A stretch of 61,087 nt of DNA from an uncultured Mycoplasmataceae bacterium (GTDB lineage Bacteria; Bacillota_I; Bacilli_A; Mycoplasmatales; Mycoplasmoidaceae): contig CASEIK010000036.1 in assembly GCA_949288005.1 (NCBI GenBank), positions 1-61,087 of the forward strand, given 5' to 3'. Under the pieces are notes generated by a model that saw only the letters and a list, made by a program, of their open reading frames with translations, was not told the DNA's origin and made no database searches. Below, piece after piece: positions 8,329-17,712 of this stretch. Numbering within the stretch: the first letter of the stretch is position 1; every line of letters starts with the position of its first letter. The position numbers and the translations under genes are program-made.

Positions 8329-10335
8329 TTAATGTGCAAAAACTTTATTATAAATAATTACTTTAAAATACATTGTAAAAAATGCTTTAAAATATCATGG
8401 ATATCAATTGAATTTAAAATTACCATTAACGGATAATTTGATACCCTTGTAAACAAGGTATTTATAAAAACTATTATCTATTAAATGATATACAGCTAAT
8501 TCTTTATTTTTATTTTCAATTAATTTCTTAATCATTTCTAATTTTTCATCATTGCTAATTTCATTTTTATTAAATACAGATTTATAACCATAAATCTTTT
8601 TTAGATATCTTATCTTCCTAGAAGATGAAATTAAAGCATTATAAAAATTAATTTCATCGTCATTATAAATATTGGAATTCAATGATTTGTGAAGTGTTTC
8701 TTTTCTGATAAATAAACTTATAAAATCAAGGTTTGGTGATGTCTTTTTAGTTTTTTCCATAAAACGTCTTTCAATAATATTCAAGTAAGGTTTAACTCTT
8801 CCTTTTTTAAGTAATGAATTAGAATAAAACTTATACTGACAAGCATACACATCATATGGTCTTAAAACATGATTAATACCTAAAAGTATTTCATATGATA
8901 TTAAATCACCTGAGTCAATAAAATTAACATAACTATTATTTATTAGATTTTTTTGATCCAAATATTTTAAAATAGCTATCTTGTTCTTTGCTTTGCCATT
9001 TATAGTAATAGGTTTAATATTATTATATTTTTCTAGAACAGTTTTATTGATTTTTATATCACTATAAATAATAACCTCTATCTTTTCAAAATTATAATTC
9101 ATAGAGTTTATAGACAATAAAGTAGATTCAAGGTTTGTAATATCCTTGTTTCTAATAACAAAAGTAAATGTATCATCCTTAATATTCTTCTTTATTTTAA
9201 TCTTCACAACAACATGCTTATATAATTCTTTAAAAATTAACCCAACTAGTGCAACTATTCCTAAAATAGCTGTTAAATAAAATGTCATTGTTCTTCATAT
9301 AAAAACTGAGTTGTTAGTAATAGTTTCTAGTTCTTGATGTGTAAGGTTTGGAACATTAACTGAATTTTTAATAAACATTAGTAAAATTGCTTGTAATGAA
9401 CCCTCAGCTCCTGGAATAGGAATAAAATTATTTGCAGTAGTTGCAACATTAACATAATTAAATAAATCTCCAGGATTAAAACTTAGCGATGCATCTACTA
9501 AATTAAAGGAAAAGATTAATGAACAATAATATAGAACATTTCATAATAGACTACAAACTGAAACAAAGATAACAAATTTATAATCCTTCATTTGTTCTAA
9601 GAAGACCTTTTTAAATGATGCATTATCTTTATATTCATGTTTGATTTCTTCTTTTGTCTTATACTTTAATTTAAAAATCTTTTTTACTTTGTTTATTAAG
9701 AGATGGAAGAAGTAATGAGCATTTTTTGATGCACTCATCATAAACCAAAAACAAGTACCAATTAGATCAATAATCAATCCAACAAAAACAGATCAAAATG
9801 AAATTAATCACTCAAGTTGAGAAGAATATTTACCATAATCTGCGCATATAACAAAGAATGATGGTCATGTAATTAATACTTGCATAAAAGGATTAAGGAT
9901 TGTAAATGAAGCAACTATTGCAGTTGATTCCTTAAGAGATAACCCTCTCTTCTTTAACCAATAAATGATATATGGTTCACAACCCATTGAGAATGGGGTG
10001 ATAGCACTAATAAAAAAAGTAACAAAACAAAAGATAGCTCAATTATACCACTCAACTAGAATCTTCTTTTTATGCAATTTATAAAAATAAATTACAACCC
10101 GTAAAAAGCAATTATATATAGGGAATAATAACAACAAGAAAAATCATAAAAAGAAAAGTTTATTAGTTCTAAAAGAACTATCTAATAAAAGTCCTATTGT
10201 ATTAAAATTAATATCAAAAAGAAATTTTGATGTTAAAACAATGAAAATGATGAAAACAATTAAACTAACACTAAATATTATAATCTTCTTTTTTGTGAAA
10301 AAAGTGTTATTAGTATTTTGTGTCTTCTCTTGCAT
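8329..10335 (-). CDS. Fusion protein: N-terminal flippase-like UPF0104/LPG_synthase_TM membrane domain plus C-terminal GT2-like glycosyltransferase domain (668 aa)
   Basis: Track ORFs 10144..10335, 9541..9777 and 8404..9288 are in one frame. I read 9289..10143 and 8329..8403 codon by codon and found only TGA. Motif NFIPIPGAEGSLQAILL is typical of UPF0104. The C-terminal half has FTFVIRN..IEVIIYSD and FIDSGD (DXD-like). Confidence 0.7.
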
Positions 10336-10359
10336 AATCGTATAATATTATAAGTTATT

Positions 10360-11139
10360 ATGGACAAAAAAATAAATATATTGATGTATTGAATAGGTAA
10401 TGAAGAAATTAAACAAAAAATCATCAAAAACATTCAAGAAATTAAACAAAAGCATGGATATGATATCTATTTAGGGCCAACAAAAAATGAACATGATTAT
10501 TTGTTAAAAATGTCCAAATTTTATCATAATAATTTTAATAAGAAAAAGTTTGCATTTTGTTCTGATTACTATAGGATATATAAAAGCATTAATGAAGATT
10601 TTTTATATATGGATGCAACAATAATCTTAAATAAAAATATTGATCATTTTGCTATATATAAAGATATTTTAGTTAGAGAAAATTTTCATTTGATATGAAA
10701 TGGTCTTTTTAAGATTAGTAATAAAAAAATGTTAGTAAATATTAAACATTTTTATGATAAATACTATTGATTAGCCAATAAAATGACAGGTCCAGTAATA
10801 TTAAGTTTTTTTATATACAAATACTATGGTGCAAGAATGAATAAAACTAAATTACAAGAGAATAATGTTTTAATTCTTAATGCTAAAGATATCGATTACT
10901 ACTCAAATGATGCAATTGCCAAATATAATGGTTTTGGTTCATGGGGGGGGAATAAAGAAACTATTAATATGAATAATAGAGAATCTACTGGTGCTCACAA
11001 ATATTTTCATAACAATGCTCTTAAATTTAATAAACCTGAACCATTTTATTGAATAGGTATTAGATGAAGTATGAAAATACTAGCCTCTTTTATTTTGTTT
11101 ATATTAAAATTTAAATGCAATGAAAATCCTAATAATTAA
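10360..11139 (+). CDS. Glycosyltransferase, capsular-polysaccharide-synthesis / Gly_transf_sug-like (259 aa)
   Basis: ATG 10360; track ORFs 10501..10698 and 10783..11052 are in the same frame. N-terminal ILMYWIG and SDYYRIYKSINEDFLYMDATI resemble the SD..R...L...GG.Y.D.D/T motif of GT32/Caps_synth families. TAA at 11137-11139. Confidence 0.6.
10943..10950 (+). repeat. Homopolymeric G8 tract inside a glycosyltransferase CDS
   Basis: Read directly: tca-tgg-ggg-ggg-aat. It is the longest G/C run I saw in the window; other G or C runs are 5 nt or shorter. Confidence 0.9.
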
Positions 11140-15221: not shown

Positions 15222-15325
15222 TTTCAAATGAATACAACTATACTTGATAATAAAATAGTATAAAATAATGAATTATATATAAATTATTAATTTATAATTA
15301 ATAATATTATATATGATTAATAAAT

Positions 15326-16816
15326 ATGATAAAAGAAAACTTTTTAATATCGATTCTTATACCTTGTTACAATGGTGAGAAGTACATTGATACTTGCCTA
15401 CAATCATGTGTTAACCAAACGTATAAAAATATTGAAATTATTGTAATTAATGATGGATCAACTGATAAATCTGAACTTTTGTTAGAACAATGAACAAAAA
15501 AGGATAAACGAATCAAATATTATTACCAAAAAAATAGTGGATTAGGTGAAACTAGAAATATTCTAATTGAAAAAGCTAATGGCCAGTTTTTTTCCTTTGT
15601 TGATATTGATGATACTATTCCAGAAAATGCTATGGAATTACTTGCATTAAATTCTAATGATGGAAATAATGATATAATTGTTGGACGTTCTAGAATAGTT
15701 TATCATTCGCTTATTAATGATACTATTTCTCTACCATTTTTTCCATCATGAAGGCATATTAATAATATGTCTAATGGACATTATGTCAAATCTAATATTT
15801 GTACACCTTGAGCCTGTTTAATCAAGAAAGAATATTTTTTAAAACAAAATATTAAATTTATACGTGGTAAGGTTTTCGAAGATTTTGGAGTTATGACATA
15901 TTTATTTTTAAATACTAAAAAATTTTACTTCATCAAGAACATTGTTTACAACTATCACAAATACAAAATTAATAATAATATTAAACCTTTATCTGCTTTC
16001 AATGATTTATGTTATAAAAAAATTGATGATATTTATTCTCAGTCAAAACAATTATTTAATCATTTAGACAATAACAAACTTTTTTTAACTAAACAATATA
16101 AGAGATACATTAATGGTGTTTTTTATCAAATATTACCAGCAAATATTTTCTTAAGTCAAAATTTGACCCCTGATAAATACATTAGATATATTCTAAGATA
16201 TAATCTAACATACTTCATTTATAAAATGGGTAGAGAAATAAGATATTCTAAAACATTTTGAAAATCTATAACATTCTTTTTTTTATACATTAAATGTGGA
16301 GATGTAATTAATGATATTAAAAATAATACTTATAATCGGAAATTTATCAAAGGACAATATCTTATCAAAAACCAAAAATATAAATATGTTATAAAAAAAT
16401 ATAACAAAGACAACTTTAAAAAAGATTTAAAATATACTATCTATGAAATTAATGATTTTGATATAGATCAAGTCAGAAAAGAGGATATAGAGTATTCAAA
16501 ATTATCTACTTTTATTACATTAAGTGATAAAGAACAAATTAGGCAAATATTTAAGAGAATGTATTATTTAAATGTTGTACCATTTGTTAGTGTTAATAGT
16601 TCATTATTTGATATTGATTTTGTTATTTGGTTATCTAAGTATGTTTTAGGTATAAATCTAATTTGTGAAAATGATACCACATTAACTGATAAGGAATCAA
16701 AAATAATTGAACGACTTAATAACCTTGAAAGAAAGAAAATAATTTATGTTACTTGTAGTTCTGATTTTGATATACAATCAATAAGGAATAAAATTGATGG
16801 AGTATTTAGAAAATAA
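15326..16816 (+). CDS. GT2-family glycosyltransferase (paralog 2) with ~190 aa C-terminal extension of unknown function
   Basis: ATG 15326. Motifs [40 protein letters not shown] and FVDIDD. Track ORFs 15893 and 16559 are in the same frame. Gaps were read and contain only TGA. Confidence 0.8.
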
Positions 16817-17712
16817 TGAAAAGTTTTAGTGTAATTATTCCAACATATAATAGTGAGAAATACATAGTCAATTGCATTAATTCATTATTAAACCAAAACT
16901 ATGATAAATCATTAATTCAAATTCTTGTTATTGATGATGGTTCAACTGATAATACTGCTAATATAGTTAAACAAACTTTTAAGAATAACAAAATAGTTGA
17001 ATATCACCTAAAACAAAATGGACAATGAGGTTCTGTTATCAACTACGTTAGAGATAATAGGTTGGCCAAGAATGATATTATTTCCATTCTTGATGCAGAT
17101 GATATGTTAACTAATAATGCTTTTAATTTAATTAATAATAAATGAAAGGATGCAGATACTTTTGTTGGTTCATTCCAAAAATGAGATGGTACTAAAAAGA
17201 GAATAAAAGTTCACCCTTATTGATTTATAATCAAACGAAGATTAATTAACAAACAACAAATGCATTCACCTTTTTGTCTACCTTTAACTTATTTCACTAA
17301 AAATGAAATATTCTATAAAACTAAACCACTAATGGAAAAAGTAGCCTACCAGGACCCAGATTATATTTCTCAAATCATCAATCTTTCAAAAATATTAAGA
17401 TTTAGCTGAAAGGTTGTAGGTTTATATTATTTTAATAGGCAAGGTAACTCTATTTCTCAACCATGAACTGATAATCGTTTTGATGCTGAATTGAATGCAT
17501 GCCAACAATGTATCAAAAACAATGCAGCAGAAATAGTATCTTATAGATTAAATTTAAAATATTTTAAACAAATGTGTGAACAAAAAAATATTGTGTTTAT
17601 AATTAATAAAAAATTAAAATTCAAATGATATCCAATATATATTAGACCATTTTACTCTTTATTACATAACCTTAAATTTAGAAAACTATTTAGCCTAAAA
17701 ACAACTAAATAA
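16816..17712 (+). CDS. GT2-family glycosyltransferase (paralog 3)
   Basis: Motifs [35 protein letters not shown] and ILDADD. Read through 8 TGA codons to TAA at 17710-17712. ATG overlaps the upstream TAA. Confidence 0.85.

What the first reader, a model, noticed from the sequence alone, without database searches (positions are those of the whole stretch)
8329..17712. Multi-glycosyltransferase glycan-biosynthesis island in a wall-less Mollicute
A contiguous block encodes:
- a flippase-like/GT fusion (8329..10335, minus);
- a Caps_synth/GT32-like transferase (10360..11139);
- a GT4 (11120..12202);
- a 691-aa polytopic membrane protein with an extracytoplasmic-looking C-terminal domain (12220..14295);
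- three tandem GT2 paralogs (14295..17712).

The plus-strand genes overlap or touch (a 20-nt overlap, then TAATG junctions), which implies one operon. galU and another GT2 lie 2-4 kb away, and a MOP-type transporter lies at 144..1895. Mycoplasmas lack peptidoglycan and most carry very few glycosyltransferases. A six-to-seven enzyme assembly line with a candidate polymerase therefore suggests a complex capsule, exopolysaccharide or glycolipid that is not predictable from known mycoplasma polysaccharide synthases, which are mostly single-synthase systems.
Basis: partly seen in the sequence, partly recalled or inferred. Interest (0 to 1): 0.7.

Follow-up and report, generated by a model that had tools for sequence, protein, structure and literature searches.

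The report
Surface-glycan gene cluster in uncultured mycoplasma
An uncultured, wall-less mycoplasma carries a conserved two-operon set of sugar-transferring enzymes, with a lipid-flippase-like protein, a previously unclassified membrane glycosyltransferase and a probable on/off switch, pointing to a route for making surface glycans that has not been described in these minimal bacteria.

Summary
The ORFs are real under genetic code 4 and sit at the stated coordinates. Profile searches confirm three GT2s, one GT4, a PF03706 (MprF-type flippase-like) membrane domain, galU and a further GT2. Three calls needed correction:
- The domain fused to the flippase-like protein has a GT-A fold, but its catalytic motifs are lost across the family.
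- The "Caps_synth/GT32" gene (g09) fails Pfam and has only a weak motif-level match to a toxin glycosyltransferase.
- The "MOP transporter" (g01) has no support.

The 691-aa "candidate polymerase" (g11) belongs to a small family without a Pfam model. Its confident AlphaFold model best matches GT-C glycosyltransferases (PglB, ArnT, AftA, DPY19), and its invariant Asp is predicted to face outward. The nearby GT2 (g18) matches only polyprenyl-phosphate sugar synthases among solved structures.

The block is not strain-specific. A core of flippase-like gene, GT4, two GT2s, an α/β-hydrolase and usually g09 recurs, rearranged, in at least five other uncultured Mycoplasmataceae contigs. The GT-C-like gene is an accessory. 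Codon usage is native. A unique G8 tract in the operon's first gene suggests phase variation.

Best reading: lipid-linked glycan assembly, flipping and GT-C-mediated decoration outside the cell. It is a new variant of a known kind.

The parts
7477..8313 (-). g07: cytoplasmic alpha/beta-hydrolase (278 aa, GESWGG nucleophile elbow), 15 nt downstream of g08 on the minus strand.
   Evidence: Pfam Abhydrolase_1 4e-11 and Hydrolase_4 1e-8. Orthologs at 43-74% identity lie inside the cluster in L084, L085, L087, L089, L090 and L095. No TM helix.
8329..10335 (-). g08: fusion of an N-terminal PF03706 (YbhN/MprF-type, flippase-like) membrane domain (about residues 1-365) with a C-terminal cytoplasmic GT-A-fold domain (about 385-668) that lacks the GT2 catalytic motifs.
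   Evidence: LPG_synthase_TM E=2.5e-12, 47.3 bits against a 33.4 cutoff. All 37 invariant residues of 23 homologs lie in residues 68-359. The C-terminal domain matches g14 at E=9e-14. AF2 pLDDT 81.9; Foldseek top hits TarS, CgT, SpsA, WrtF, TarP and RmlT at 5e-7 to 1e-5. P-x-YN, DDGSxD and DXD are not conserved in 15 homologs.
10336..10359 (.). 24-nt divergent intergenic spacer between the g08 and g09 start codons. Promoters for both operons must overlap it or lie within coding sequence.
   Evidence: Sequence read directly. The promoter scan is uninformative in this AT-rich DNA: 103 sites found against 127 expected.
10360..11139 (+). g09: 259-aa tail-anchored protein, the first gene of the plus-strand operon. 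It is a putative divergent GT-A glycosyltransferase with a GT32/GT44-like 'SD..R...Y.DA' motif, in which the second Asp of the DXD is replaced by an invariant Ala.
   Evidence: No Pfam or NCBIfam hit. The word-based search of 5.8 billion proteins found only a same-species copy. Orthologs at 34-45% identity sit next to g08-like genes in L085, L087, L089, L095 and L096. The family profile matches YeGT 8ovs at E=0.015 over the motif. One C-terminal TM helix at 231-249.
10943..10950 (+). G8 homopolymer inside g09 (codons TGG GGG GGG = W195 G196 G197): a candidate slipped-strand phase-variation switch.
   Evidence: It is the only G/C run longer than 5 nt in 61 kb, where about 0.01 is expected. It is built from rare codons, while homologs use TGA/GGA and have G runs of at most 4. 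G7 or G9 truncates g09 at 231 or 198 aa. Both available samples carry G8 in frame. Precedent: the poly(G) tract in M. agalactiae gsmA (PMC12103780).
11120..12202 (+). g10: GT4 (GT-B fold) glycosyltransferase, soluble, with an intact E-x7-E motif (E274...E282).
   Evidence: Glycos_transf_1 9e-12 and Glyco_trans_1_4 1e-7. The motif was read from the sequence. No TM helix. Orthologs at 28-52% identity in L002, L085, L087, L089 and L090.
12220..14295 (+). g11: 691-aa polytopic membrane protein (15-16 TM helices) with a C-terminal alpha/beta domain (about 540-691). It is a GT-C-like glycosyltransferase from a family without a Pfam model. D124 and R455 are invariant and predicted to be extracytoplasmic.
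   Evidence: 51 representatives among 1.84 billion proteins. No Pfam hit for any of 44 members and no PDB sequence hit. AF2 pLDDT 86.9, pTM 0.90. Foldseek ranks 1-4 are DPY19, PglB, AftA and ArnT with probabilities 0.93-1.00, but TM-scores are only 0.23-0.36. Invariant residues. Positive-inside topology gives 17 K/R inside and 7 outside.
14295..15221 (+). g12: soluble GT2 (308 aa) with DDGS and DVDD motifs intact. It is an accessory member, present in some cluster variants.
   Evidence: Glycos_transf_2 3e-35. Motifs visible in the alignment. Orthologs at 53-63% identity in L087, L090, L095 and L100.
15326..16816 (+). g13: GT2 (496 aa) with an N-terminal catalytic domain and a C-terminal extension of about 260 aa of unknown function. 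Core member.
   Evidence: Glycos_transf_2 7e-32 over residues 9-138. The C-terminal part has no family. Orthologs of 480-500 aa at 41-46% identity in L085, L087, L089, L090 and L095.
16816..17712 (+). g14: soluble GT2 (298 aa). Core member, the best-conserved GT of the cluster and the closest paralog of g08's degenerate domain.
   Evidence: Glycos_transf_2 3e-26. Orthologs at 50-66% identity in five loci. Shares the C-terminal 'KFxWYPxY' tail with g08.
17802..17827 (.). Perfect 12-nt inverted repeat in the convergent gap between g14 and g15: a possible bidirectional terminator that closes the operon.
   Evidence: the repeat finder I2, 100% complementary arms. The function is inferred only.
19365..20252 (-). 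galU (UTP-glucose-1-phosphate uridylyltransferase), which supplies UDP-glucose. It is part of the conserved backbone, not of the mobile module.
   Evidence: NTP_transferase 2e-31. 52-71% identical orthologs lie in the same gyrB-gyrA-GT2-exonuclease-galU order in L003-L008 and L025.
20792..21550 (-). g18: 252-aa GT2 of the DPM1/ArnC/GtrB/PpgS type, a probable polyprenyl-phosphate hexose synthase. It has no TM helix and is conserved next to gyrA across the lineage.
   Evidence: Glycos_transf_2 3e-25. Best NCBIfam hits are PpgS 1.6e-17, AglJ, PgfS and ArnC, all below the equivalog cutoffs. All 7 PDB sequence hits are Pol-P glycosyltransferases: DPMS 1e-11, three ArnC entries and three entries of the GtrB homolog sll0501. 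Orthologs at 52-69% identity in L003-L008 and L025.

Best explanation
The locus is a two-operon glycoconjugate biosynthesis module (minus strand g08-g07; plus strand g09-g14). It builds a lipid-linked oligosaccharide at the cytoplasmic face of the single membrane, moves it to the outer leaflet, and decorates or transfers it outside the cell.

Proposed steps:
1. GalU supplies UDP-glucose. The enzyme identity is shown; its role here is inferred.
2. The soluble GT4 (g10), the GT2s g13 and g14 (plus g12 in this variant), and probably the tail-anchored g09 add sugars in turn to a membrane lipid acceptor. The acceptor would be diacylglycerol/glycolipid or polyprenyl phosphate. The GT identities are shown; the acceptor and the order are inferred.
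3. The PF03706 membrane domain of g08 translocates the lipid-linked product, as MprF's homologous domain does for lysyl-phosphatidylglycerol. Its catalytically dead GT-A domain, a paralog of g14, would act as a cytoplasmic recognition or docking module. This step is inferred.
4. g18 makes a polyprenyl-phosphate hexose. The enzyme class is shown by homology.
5. The GT-C-like g11 uses a flipped lipid-linked sugar, with its invariant extracytoplasmic Asp124, to glycosylate the exported glycan or another surface acceptor. The fold is shown; the activity is inferred. Because g11 is missing from several cluster variants, it is most likely a decorating enzyme and not an essential polymerase.
6. The conserved alpha/beta-hydrolase g07 remodels an ester, such as an acyl or acetyl group, on the lipid or glycan. 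This step is inferred.
7. A G8 tract in g09 allows ON/OFF switching by slipped-strand mispairing. This step is inferred.
For: - GT identities and intact motifs.
- Operon architecture.
- No TM helices in any GT2 or the GT4, so these are not synthase-type enzymes.
- The core g08 + GT4 + g13 + g14 + hydrolase (+ g09) recurs in the window, L085/L086, L087, L089, L090 and L095, at 41-66% identity and in shuffled gene orders. That pattern argues for functional linkage over mere synteny.
- g11-like genes lie directly beside g08-like genes in four independent loci: the window, L085, L088/L092 and L001.
- g08's membrane domain is PF03706 above the gathering score, and every family-invariant residue lies in that domain.
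- g08's C-terminal domain has a GT-A fold without catalytic motifs.
- The g11 model is confident (pTM 0.90) and its four best PDB matches are all GT-C enzymes.
- The invariant D124 opens the first helix of a long acidic loop that is predicted to be outside, as are R455 and the C-terminal domain.
- g18 matches only polyprenyl-phosphate glycosyltransferases among solved structures.
- Codon usage is native.
- The G8 tract is unique in 61 kb and built from rare codons. There is a poly(G) precedent in gsmA (PMC12103780).
Against: - Foldseek E-values for g11 are marginal (1e-3 to 3e-2) and TM-scores are low (0.23-0.36). Neither a sequence profile nor Pfam links it to any GT-C family.
- The g08 family profile does not hit MprF among PDB sequences. 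Flippase activity is documented only for MprF within PF03706, which is my own knowledge, not a tool result.
- No cis-prenyltransferase (uppS) or lipid-carrier recycling gene is on this contig. The existence of polyprenyl phosphate in this organism is therefore unproven.
- g18 lacks the TM helices of GtrB and ArnC and scores far below the NCBIfam equivalog cutoffs.
- The core cluster occurs without a g11-like gene within 10 kb in L087, L089, L090 and L095.
- Both sampled populations carry the same in-frame G8, so no switching has been observed.
- The 25 substitutions between the two samples (10 synonymous, 15 nonsynonymous) are too few to show selection.
- There are no expression or chemical data.
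Confidence: 0.5

Rival explanations
1. One reading: a Wzx/Wzy-type capsule or exopolysaccharide assembly line. Repeat units would be built on undecaprenyl pyrophosphate, flipped by the MOP-like g01 (or g08), and polymerised outside by g11 acting as a Wzy-like polymerase.
For: - There are many GTs in one operon.
- g11 is a polytopic membrane protein with a large extracytoplasmic domain.
- A flippase-like domain is present.
- g01 is a roughly 11-helix membrane protein.
Against: - No priming phosphoglycosyltransferase, chain-length regulator or recognisable MOP/Wzx protein is on the 61-kb contig.
- g11's best structural matches are GT-C transferases, and no O-antigen ligase, Wzy or SEDS polymerase is among the 50 listed hits.
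- g11 is dispensable in four cluster variants.
- Wzx/Wzy pathways have not been retrieved in silico in mycoplasmas (PMC11658790).
Confidence: 0.1
2. A protein glycosylation system. The cytoplasmic GTs assemble an oligosaccharide on a polyprenyl carrier, g08 flips it, and g11 acts as an oligosaccharyl- or glycosyl-transferase onto surface (lipo)proteins, like PglB/AglB, PMT or DPY19.
For: - PglB, DPY19 and yeast STT3 are among g11's best structural matches.
- Mycoplasma surface proteins are known to be glycosylated by unidentified enzymes (PMC4657876, PMC12453214).
- A 1939-aa putative surface protein is encoded on the same contig.
Against: - g11 has no WWDYG-type motif (sequence) and no sequence relation to STT3 or PMT families.
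- ArnT and AftA, which glycosylate lipids and glycans, match about as well.
- The described mycoplasma hexosylation scavenges exogenous oligosaccharides and is reported in M. genitalium and JCVI-Syn3A (PMC12453214). Those are genomes far too small to hold a locus of this size.
- No priming transferase for a pyrophosphate-linked carrier is present.
Confidence: 0.15
3. Glycolipid synthesis only. The soluble GT4 and GT2s make oligoglycosyl-diacylglycerol membrane lipids, as MPN483/MG517 and the Acholeplasma MGS/DGS enzymes do. g08 merely equilibrates them between leaflets, and g11 is a co-located membrane protein with another role, such as a transporter or structural protein.
For: - The soluble GT2s without TM helices are of the type assigned to glycolipid synthesis in mycoplasmas (PMC11658790 introduction).
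- g10 has a weak NCBIfam hit to a processive diacylglycerol glucosyltransferase (E=0.026).
- The core cluster exists without g11.
- The conserved lipase-like alpha/beta-hydrolase fits lipid remodelling.
Against: - Five to six distinct transferases are more than known mycoplasma glycolipids require (my knowledge).
- g11-like genes are repeatedly adjacent to g08-like, GT2 or GT4 genes in unrelated contigs.
- g11's specific GT-C structural matches and its invariant outward-facing Asp are unexplained by this model.
- The presence of a Pol-P-sugar synthase homolog is also unexplained.
Confidence: 0.2
4. A decaying or non-functional remnant of an ancestral Firmicute cell-envelope glycosylation locus (teichoic-acid-type GT2s of the TarS/TarP kind), retained by chance.
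For: - g08's GT domain has lost its catalytic motifs.
- L087 carries a split GT2.
- TarS, TarP and RmlT are the nearest structures to the g08 C-terminal domain.
Against: - All eight window genes are intact long ORFs with intact motifs in g10 and g12-g14.
- The module is conserved at 41-66% identity across several species despite extreme genome reduction.
- A second sample is 99.8% identical with no frameshift in these genes.
- The degenerate domain is degenerate in all 15 homologs yet retained at full length, which indicates a conserved non-catalytic role.
Confidence: 0.03

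Closest known systems
Three-component polyprenyl-phosphate-sugar glycosylation systems: GtrB/GtrA/GtrC (O-antigen glucosylation), CsbB/GtcA/YfhO (teichoic acid glycosylation), PpgS/Rv3632/Rv3779 (mycobacterial arabinogalactan), ArnC/ArnEF/ArnT (lipid A)
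   Same: - A DPM1/GtrB/ArnC/PpgS-like GT2 (g18).
- A candidate lipid flippase (g08).
- A polytopic GT-C-like enzyme with an outward-facing conserved Asp and an extracytoplasmic C-terminal domain (g11).
- g11 behaves as an optional decorating module.
   Different: - The candidate flippase is a PF03706/MprF-type domain fused to a dead GT-A domain, not a small GtrA/GtcA or ArnE/F protein.
- g18 has no TM helices and is not in the cluster; it lies 3 kb away in the conserved backbone.
- g11 belongs to no known GT-C sequence family.
- The host has no wall, LPS or teichoic acid to decorate, so the acceptor is unknown.
- Four or five additional cytoplasmic GTs are co-encoded.
MprF (lysyl-phosphatidylglycerol synthase/flippase)
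   Same: - The same Pfam membrane domain, PF03706, above the gathering score.
- The same logic of a membrane translocation domain fused to a cytoplasmic lipid-modifying-type domain.
   Different: - The cytoplasmic domain has a GT-A fold in place of an aminoacyl-PG synthase and lacks catalytic motifs.
- The family profile does not detect MprF among solved structures.
- The substrate is presumably a glycolipid or lipid-linked glycan, not an aminoacyl-phospholipid.
Mycoplasma synthase-dependent capsule loci (M. mycoides galactan synthase, M. agalactiae GsmA; PMC11658790)
   Same: - A Mollicute host.
- UDP-sugar supply by galU (and glf in the L085 variant).
- GT2 chemistry.
- A poly(G) tract that could give ON/OFF switching, as in gsmA (PMC12103780).
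   Different: - Known systems use one membrane-embedded GT2 that both polymerises and exports. Here the GT2s have no TM helices.
- There are 5-6 distinct transferases.
- Export and extracellular chemistry are assigned to separate proteins, g08 and g11.
Wzx/Wzy-dependent capsule and O-antigen clusters
   Same: - Multi-GT operon architecture.
- A lipid-linked intermediate, a flipping step and an extracytoplasmic membrane enzyme.
   Different: No phosphoglycosyltransferase, MOP flippase, Wzy_C/EpsG-type polymerase or PCP/Wzz protein was detected.
Mycoplasma GT2 glycolipid synthases (M. pneumoniae MPN483, M. genitalium MG517)
   Same: Soluble or peripheral GT2 enzymes using UDP-hexoses at the cytoplasmic membrane face. 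This rests on my knowledge and the PMC11658790 introduction.
   Different: - Those are single processive enzymes.

Membership tests
GT2 (Pfam PF00535 Glycos_transf_2): g12, g13, g14 | Profile match above the gathering score, plus the DDGS-type UDP-binding motif and the DXD motif | tested here: met
   122, 111 and 92.9 bits against a cutoff of 23.3. NDGSTD/DDGSTD and DVDD/DIDD/DADD are visible in the alignment.
GT2 (catalytically competent): C-terminal domain of g08 | GT-A fold | tested here: met
   Foldseek hits to TarS, CgT, SpsA, WrtF and TarP at E 5e-7 to 1e-5, TM (target) 0.5-0.74. BLASTP to g14 at 9e-14. Family profile against the GT2 structures 5hea and 5tze at 1.5e-4 and 2.7e-4.
GT2 (catalytically competent): C-terminal domain of g08 | Conserved P-x-YN, DDGS-x-D and DXD residues | tested here: not met
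   None of the three motifs is conserved in 15 homologs. The DXD position reads DSGD, NSGD, NSGE, EPGS, ESNS and so on. There is no invariant residue beyond position 359.
GT4 (Pfam PF00534 Glycos_transf_1): g10 | Profile match above the gathering score, plus the E-x7-E motif | tested here: met
   45.3 bits against 26.4. E274-GFSFSIV-E282 in the sequence.
PF03706 LPG_synthase_TM / YbhN (MprF-type flippase domain): g08 N-terminal domain | Profile match above the gathering score | tested here: met
   47.3 bits against 33.4, covering profile positions 6-275 of 302. 40 of the 42 proteins found in the g08 search (the window's own protein included) carry PF03706.
PF03706 LPG_synthase_TM / YbhN (MprF-type flippase domain): g08 N-terminal domain | Detectable similarity to the solved MprF protein, and lipid-flipping activity | tested here: inconclusive
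   The family profile finds no MprF chain at E<=1. The Foldseek list is saturated by GT-A hits, so the membrane domain was not assessed. The activity cannot be tested in silico.
GT32 / Caps_synth (Pfam PF04488 / PF05704): g09 | Profile match to the family | tested here: not met
   No Pfam family even at E<=10 and no NCBIfam hit.
GT-A toxin-like / GT32-like nucleotide-sugar motif: g09 | The motif 'W.G ... SD..R ... GG.Y.D.D' with an intact DXD | tested here: inconclusive
   The family profile aligns to YeGT (8ovs) at E=0.015 over 'KKFAxxSDxxR...Y.D' and the N-terminal 'I..W.G'. S68/D69, R72 and D85 are conserved, but the second Asp is an invariant Ala86.
GT-C glycosyltransferase superfamily: g11 | Polytopic membrane module followed by an extracytoplasmic soluble domain | tested here: met
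   The AF2 model (pLDDT 86.9, pTM 0.90) has 15-16 TM helices and an alpha/beta domain at 540-691. The best positive-inside topology puts the C-terminal domain outside.
GT-C glycosyltransferase superfamily: g11 | Structural similarity to solved GT-C enzymes | tested here: inconclusive
   Ranks 1-4 are DPY19, PglB, AftA and ArnT (probabilities 0.99, 1.00, 0.99, 0.93), followed by STT3 and ALG9. E-values are only 1e-3 to 3e-2 and TM-scores are 0.23-0.36.
GT-C glycosyltransferase superfamily: g11 | Conserved acidic residue at the start of the first long extracytoplasmic loop | tested here: met
   D124 is invariant in 44 sequences. It lies at the N-terminus of loop helix 123-135, directly after TM helix 99-116, in a loop predicted to be outside. 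The sidedness is inferred, not measured.
GT-C glycosyltransferase superfamily: g11 | Sequence membership in a described GT-C family (STT3, PMT, PMT_2/ArnT, YfhO and others) | tested here: not met
   No Pfam hit for any of 44 family members, no NCBIfam hit and no PDB sequence hit with the family profile.
GT-C glycosyltransferase superfamily: g11 | Use of a polyprenyl-phosphate-linked sugar donor | not testable with these tools
   Indirect support only: g18 is a DPMS/ArnC/GtrB-type GT2. No uppS is on the contig.
STT3/PglB oligosaccharyltransferases: g11 | WWDYG motif and sequence homology to STT3 | tested here: not met
   There is no WWD motif in the g11 sequence and no profile relation.
Polyprenyl-phosphate glycosyltransferases (DPM1/GtrB/ArnC/PpgS clade of GT2): g18 | Closest homology to enzymes of this clade over the catalytic domain and interface helices | tested here: met
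   All 7 PDB sequence hits are of this clade: DPMS 1.1e-11 over residues 20-234, three ArnC entries and three entries of the GtrB homolog sll0501. The best NCBIfam hits are PpgS, AglJ, PgfS and ArnC, all far below the equivalog cutoffs, so there is no specific orthology.
Wzx/Wzy-dependent polysaccharide pathway | Priming phosphoglycosyltransferase, MOP-family flippase, Wzy polymerase and chain-length regulator | tested here: not met
   None was detected among the contig's proteins that were scanned. The 15 unscanned downstream ORFs were identified only by reading their translations. g01 has no MOP, MurJ or Wzx similarity. The rest of the genome is unseen.
Synthase-dependent Mycoplasma capsule systems (GsmA / galactan synthase type) | GT2 catalytic loop flanked by transmembrane helices (PMC11658790) | tested here: not met
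   No hydrophobic segment reaches the threshold in g12, g13, g14 or g18.
Phase-variable contingency locus | Hypermutable simple repeat inside the coding sequence whose length change shifts the frame | tested here: met
   G8 at 10943-10950 is unique in 61 kb, and a change of one base gives premature stops.
Phase-variable contingency locus | Observed length polymorphism of the tract | tested here: not met
   Both available assemblies carry G8.

The most novel reading that the evidence does not exclude
Wall-less Mollicutes possess a previously unrecognised lipid-carrier-dependent pathway for glycosylation outside the cell. It would consist of a Mollicute-restricted GT-C family with no sequence relation to known ones, a PF03706 flippase fused to a pseudo-glycosyltransferase that hands over the lipid-linked glycan, and a TM-less DPM1-like polyprenyl-phosphate sugar synthase, all under poly(G) phase-variable control. 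This could be the missing machinery for complex surface lipoglycans or glycoproteins in mycoplasmas.
Probability: 0.3. Interest if true: 0.75.

Novelty: new variant of a known kind. Interest (0 to 1): 0.55.

Why it matters
Characterised mycoplasma polysaccharides come from single membrane-embedded GT2 synthases. Canonical Wzx/Wzy or ABC pathways have not been found in silico, and authors in the field explicitly expect "other, yet undeciphered, pathways" (PMC11658790). The enzymes behind mycoplasma surface-protein glycosylation are also unknown (PMC4657876, PMC12453214).

This locus offers concrete, testable candidates for such a pathway:
- a conserved gene module;
- a new GT-C-like family with one invariant Asp to mutate;
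- an unusual flippase/pseudo-GT fusion;
- a likely phase switch.

If correct, genome-reduced, wall-less gut-type mycoplasmas invest about 10 kb in a variable surface glycan. That is relevant to host interaction and immune evasion. It would also extend GT-C/polyprenyl-phosphate chemistry to bacteria that lack all the classical acceptors (peptidoglycan, teichoic acids, LPS).

Tried and rejected
- Table-11 ORF calling is unusable, because the organism reads TGA as Trp.
The TGA-free g15 is not on record.
- Pfam and NCBIfam scans for g09, the g08 C-terminal half, the g13 C-terminal half, g01 and g11 found nothing usable.
- PDB sequence searches with the g11 family profile, g09 alone and g01 found nothing.
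I ran no further search on a single-sequence fold of P0004.
- The metagenome scan with the 44-sequence g11 alignment had no conserved stretch to search with. The 3-sequence alignment gave no confirmed hit. The g08 alignment gave 16 mostly short loci.
- The sigma-70 promoter scan found fewer sites than shuffled sequence, which is uninformative in 22% GC DNA.
- The GC and codon-usage test for horizontal transfer showed no deviation, so I rejected the idea of a recently acquired island.
- The substitution count against the second sample has too few differences to use.
- Literature searches for PF03706 with glycosyltransferase, GT-C in Mollicutes, and polyprenol in mycoplasma found nothing relevant. 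The gsmA primary paper is not held.
- I rejected the synthase-type reading (no TM helices in the GT2s) and the PglB-type OST reading (no WWDYG motif).

Full report
**1. The observation**

The window is a complete 61,087-bp contig with about 25% GC. Table-11 ORFs are fragmented.

The junctions are as described:
- g09 and g10 overlap by 20 nt.
- g11/g12 and g13/g14 are TAATG junctions.
- The g10-g11 gap is 17 nt and the g12-g13 gap is 104 nt.
- g08 and g09 diverge from start codons 24 nt apart.
- g07 follows g08 by 15 nt on the minus strand.

The locus is therefore two divergent operons: g08-g07 and g09-g14. A perfect 12-nt inverted repeat at 17802-17827 lies in the convergent gap after g14.

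**2. Which family calls hold**

Pfam confirms the following above the gathering scores:
- three GT2s (g12, g13, g14);
- one GT4 (g10);
- an LPG_synthase_TM/PF03706 domain in g08 (residues 26-324);
- galU;
- a further GT2 (g18).

The GT2s keep their DDGS and DXD motifs, and g10 keeps E-x7-E. None of them has a transmembrane helix. That separates them from the membrane-embedded GT2 synthases behind all characterised Mycoplasma capsules (PMC11658790).

Three calls needed correction.

(a) The C-terminal half of g08 has no Pfam hit. It is homologous to g14 (E=9e-14). In a confident model (pLDDT 81.9) it has a GT-A fold closest to TarS, CgT, SpsA, WrtF, TarP and RmlT. Yet in 15 homologs none of the P-x-YN, DDGSxD or DXD motifs is conserved. 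All 37 invariant residues of the family sit in the membrane domain. It is a retained but catalytically degenerate GT domain.

(b) g09 has no Pfam or NCBIfam hit at any threshold. A word-based search of 5.8 billion proteins found only a same-species copy. Orthologs at 34-45% identity exist next to g08-like genes. The five-sequence profile aligns at E=0.015 to the Yersinia toxin glycosyltransferase YeGT, exactly over the 'SD..R...Y.D' sugar-nucleotide motif, but the second Asp of the DXD is an invariant Ala. The GT call for g09 is plausible but unproven.

(c) g01, the 'MOP transporter', has no support of any kind.

**3. The 691-aa membrane protein (g11)**

A word-based search found two relatives. 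A full HMMER scan of 1.84 billion representatives found 51. None of 44 aligned members hits any Pfam model, and the family profile hits no PDB sequence.

With that alignment AlphaFold gives pLDDT 86.9 and pTM 0.90. The model has 15-16 TM helices and a C-terminal alpha/beta domain. Foldseek against the PDB puts four GT-C glycosyltransferases first: DPY19, PglB, AftA and ArnT, with probabilities 0.93-1.00. STT3 and ALG9 follow. Unrelated transporters and receptors have probabilities of 0.5 or less. E-values (1e-3 to 3e-2) and TM-scores (0.23-0.36) are weak, so this is fold-level evidence only.

Two residues are invariant across 44 sequences: D124 and R455. D124 opens the first helix of a long acidic loop directly after TM helix 99-116. 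A 16-helix, N-out topology satisfies the positive-inside rule best, with 17 K/R inside and 7 outside, against 18:13 for the alternatives. It places D124, R455 and the C-terminal domain outside. This is the arrangement of the catalytic Asp in GT-C enzymes, by my knowledge of PglB, ArnT and PMT structures. There is no WWDYG motif, so g11 is not an STT3/PglB family member.

**4. A candidate donor synthase**

g18 lies 3 kb away. Among solved structures it matches, in sequence, only polyprenyl-phosphate glycosyltransferases: DPMS at 1e-11, three ArnC entries and three entries of the GtrB homolog sll0501. Its best NCBIfam hits are PpgS, AglJ, PgfS and ArnC, all below the equivalog cutoffs. It lacks TM helices.

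It is conserved between gyrA and an exonuclease/galU pair in every related MAG examined. One MAG (JAHHTH01) carries both this backbone (L007) and a g11-containing cluster (L085).

**5. Organism and distribution**

The nearest GTDB genomes are uncultured Mycoplasmataceae MAGs with only 69-71% GalU identity and 81-87% GyrA identity. A second metagenome holds the same species at 99.8% nucleotide identity.

The backbone gyrB-gyrA-g18-g17-galU-g15 is conserved. In L004, the only close relative with enough flank, the genes beyond g15 have no counterpart in the window. The module therefore sits at different genomic places.

The module itself is conserved. g08-like, GT4, g13-like, g14-like and hydrolase genes, usually with g09-like, recur in shuffled order in L085/L086, L087, L089, L090 and L095, at 41-66% identity. 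The accessory members are:
- g12-like (L087, L090, L095, L100);
- UDP-galactopyranose mutase (L085);
- g11-like (window, L085, L088/L092, L001, L002).

g11-like genes lie directly beside g08-like genes in four independent loci. GC3 and synonymous codon usage of g07-g14 are indistinguishable from the housekeeping genes. No uppS, priming phosphoglycosyltransferase, Wzx, Wzy or Wzz was found among the 30 contig proteins scanned. The 15 unscanned ORFs downstream of gyrB were identified only by reading their translations.

**6. A probable switch**

g09 contains a G8 run at 10943-10950. It is the only G/C run longer than 5 nt in 61 kb, where about 0.01 is expected. It is made of TGG-GGG-GGG, whereas Trp is almost always TGA on this contig and the homologs use TGA/GGA at that site. 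One base more or less truncates g09 before its membrane anchor. Because g10 overlaps g09, a slip could also disturb downstream translation (inference). Both samples carry in-frame G8. M. agalactiae switches its capsule ON and OFF through a poly(G) tract in gsmA (PMC12103780).

**7. Mechanism**

I commit, at about 0.5, to the following model. Cytoplasmic GTs (g10, g13, g14, g12 and probably g09) build an oligosaccharide on a membrane lipid from UDP-sugars. The PF03706 domain of g08 flips the lipid-linked product, with its dead GT-A domain acting as a recognition or docking module, which mirrors the MprF design. The GT-C-like g11 uses a flipped lipid-linked sugar, for which g18 is the likely polyprenyl-phosphate hexose synthase, to decorate the exported glycan or another surface acceptor. 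g07 remodels an ester.

- Shown: the enzyme classes, the folds, the conservation, the gene linkage and the repeat.
- Inferred: the acceptor lipid, the order of steps, flipping by g08, the activity and acceptor of g11, the role of g07 and the switching.

Rivals:
- glycolipid synthesis only, with g11 unrelated (0.2);
- protein glycosylation by an OST-like g11 (0.15);
- a decaying remnant (0.03).

**8. Comparison and novelty**

The locus works most like the three-component GtrB/GtrA/GtrC, CsbB/GtcA/YfhO, PpgS/Rv3632/Rv3779 and ArnC/ArnEF/ArnT systems, grafted onto a multi-GT cytoplasmic assembly line. It is not a member of any of them:
- the candidate flippase is of a different family and is fused to a pseudo-enzyme;
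- the GT-C-like protein belongs to no described sequence family;
- the host has none of the classical acceptors.

It is a new variant of a known kind. Searches of the literature found no description of GT-C enzymes or polyprenyl-phosphate sugars in Mollicutes. The field expects undeciphered pathways, and some species, such as M. moatsii with 11 GTs, make uncharacterised glycoconjugates (PMC11658790).

**Verdict**

The 'polymerase/Wzy-like island' reading is replaced by a conserved, probably phase-variable, flippase-plus-GT-C glycoconjugate module. Interest is 0.55.

Noticed in passing
window 10943-10950: A G8 homopolymer inside g09, the only G/C run longer than 5 nt on the contig. It is built from rare TGG/GGG codons and is absent from homologs. 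A change of one base truncates the protein. It is a candidate phase-variation switch like the poly(G) tract in M. agalactiae gsmA.
   Followed up: yes
window about 26500-28500: The cumulative GC-skew minimum falls between dnaN (26562-27701, minus) and pth (27874-28446, plus), and gene orientation switches there. This is the probable replication origin, yet no dnaA gene is adjacent. The glycan cluster lies about 10-20 kb from it.
   Followed up: partly
window 46047-51866 (+): A 1939-aa ORF with a hydrophobic N-terminal signal-like segment, a C-terminal TM anchor and many repeats ending in '(I/V)(S/T)GFK(K/Q)'. It has no Pfam family. It is a likely giant surface protein and a conceivable glycosylation target.
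   Followed up: partly
window 1985-3427 (g02 plus strand, g03 minus strand): The same-species copy of g03 carries the precomputed Pfam domain SocA_Panacea, an antitoxin-type domain. The adjacent 235-aa g02 has no family. This is a possible toxin-antitoxin or defence pair just upstream of the cluster region.
   Followed up: no
L085 18446-19582 (MAG077, GCA_020024755.1): In this relative the same module carries a UDP-galactopyranose mutase (GLF) gene and a 770-aa gene with no family directly after the g14 ortholog. Some variants of the glycan therefore probably contain galactofuranose, as M. mycoides galactan does.
   Followed up: partly
L087 6031-6924 (minus): A g14-like GT2 is split into 93-aa and 198-aa ORFs inside an otherwise intact cluster that abuts gyrB/gyrA. 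This is a probable pseudogene or a frameshift-switched copy.
   Followed up: no
window 18038-19111 (-), g15: A 357-aa Lys/Asn/Asp-rich protein with no Trp codon at all and no family. It is conserved only in the closest MAGs (37-51% identity) between galU and the variable region. Its exact sequence is not on record in the gene-position index.
   Followed up: partly
window 40263-41555 (+): A single 430-aa protein made of three tandem RidA/Endoribonuclease L-PSP domains (Pfam E=1e-56, 3 stretches). This is an unusual triple fusion.
   Followed up: no
window 42751-44031 (-): A second alpha/beta-hydrolase (Abhydrolase_1/Hydrolase_4) of 426 aa with a long C-terminal extension. It may be a paralog of the cluster hydrolase g07.
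   Followed up: no
P0041 and P0043 (g08 relatives): Other Mycoplasma-lineage proteins fuse the same PF03706 domain to a GT4 (Glycos_transf_1) domain in place of a GT2-like one. Flippase-like/GT fusions therefore appear to be a recurrent design in Mollicutes.
   Followed up: no
window 4547-5650 (g05, SLAC1 family): The only indel between the window and the second-sample contig L083 falls in this anion-channel gene (367 against 371 aa). It also has 4 of the 15 nonsynonymous differences.
   Followed up: no
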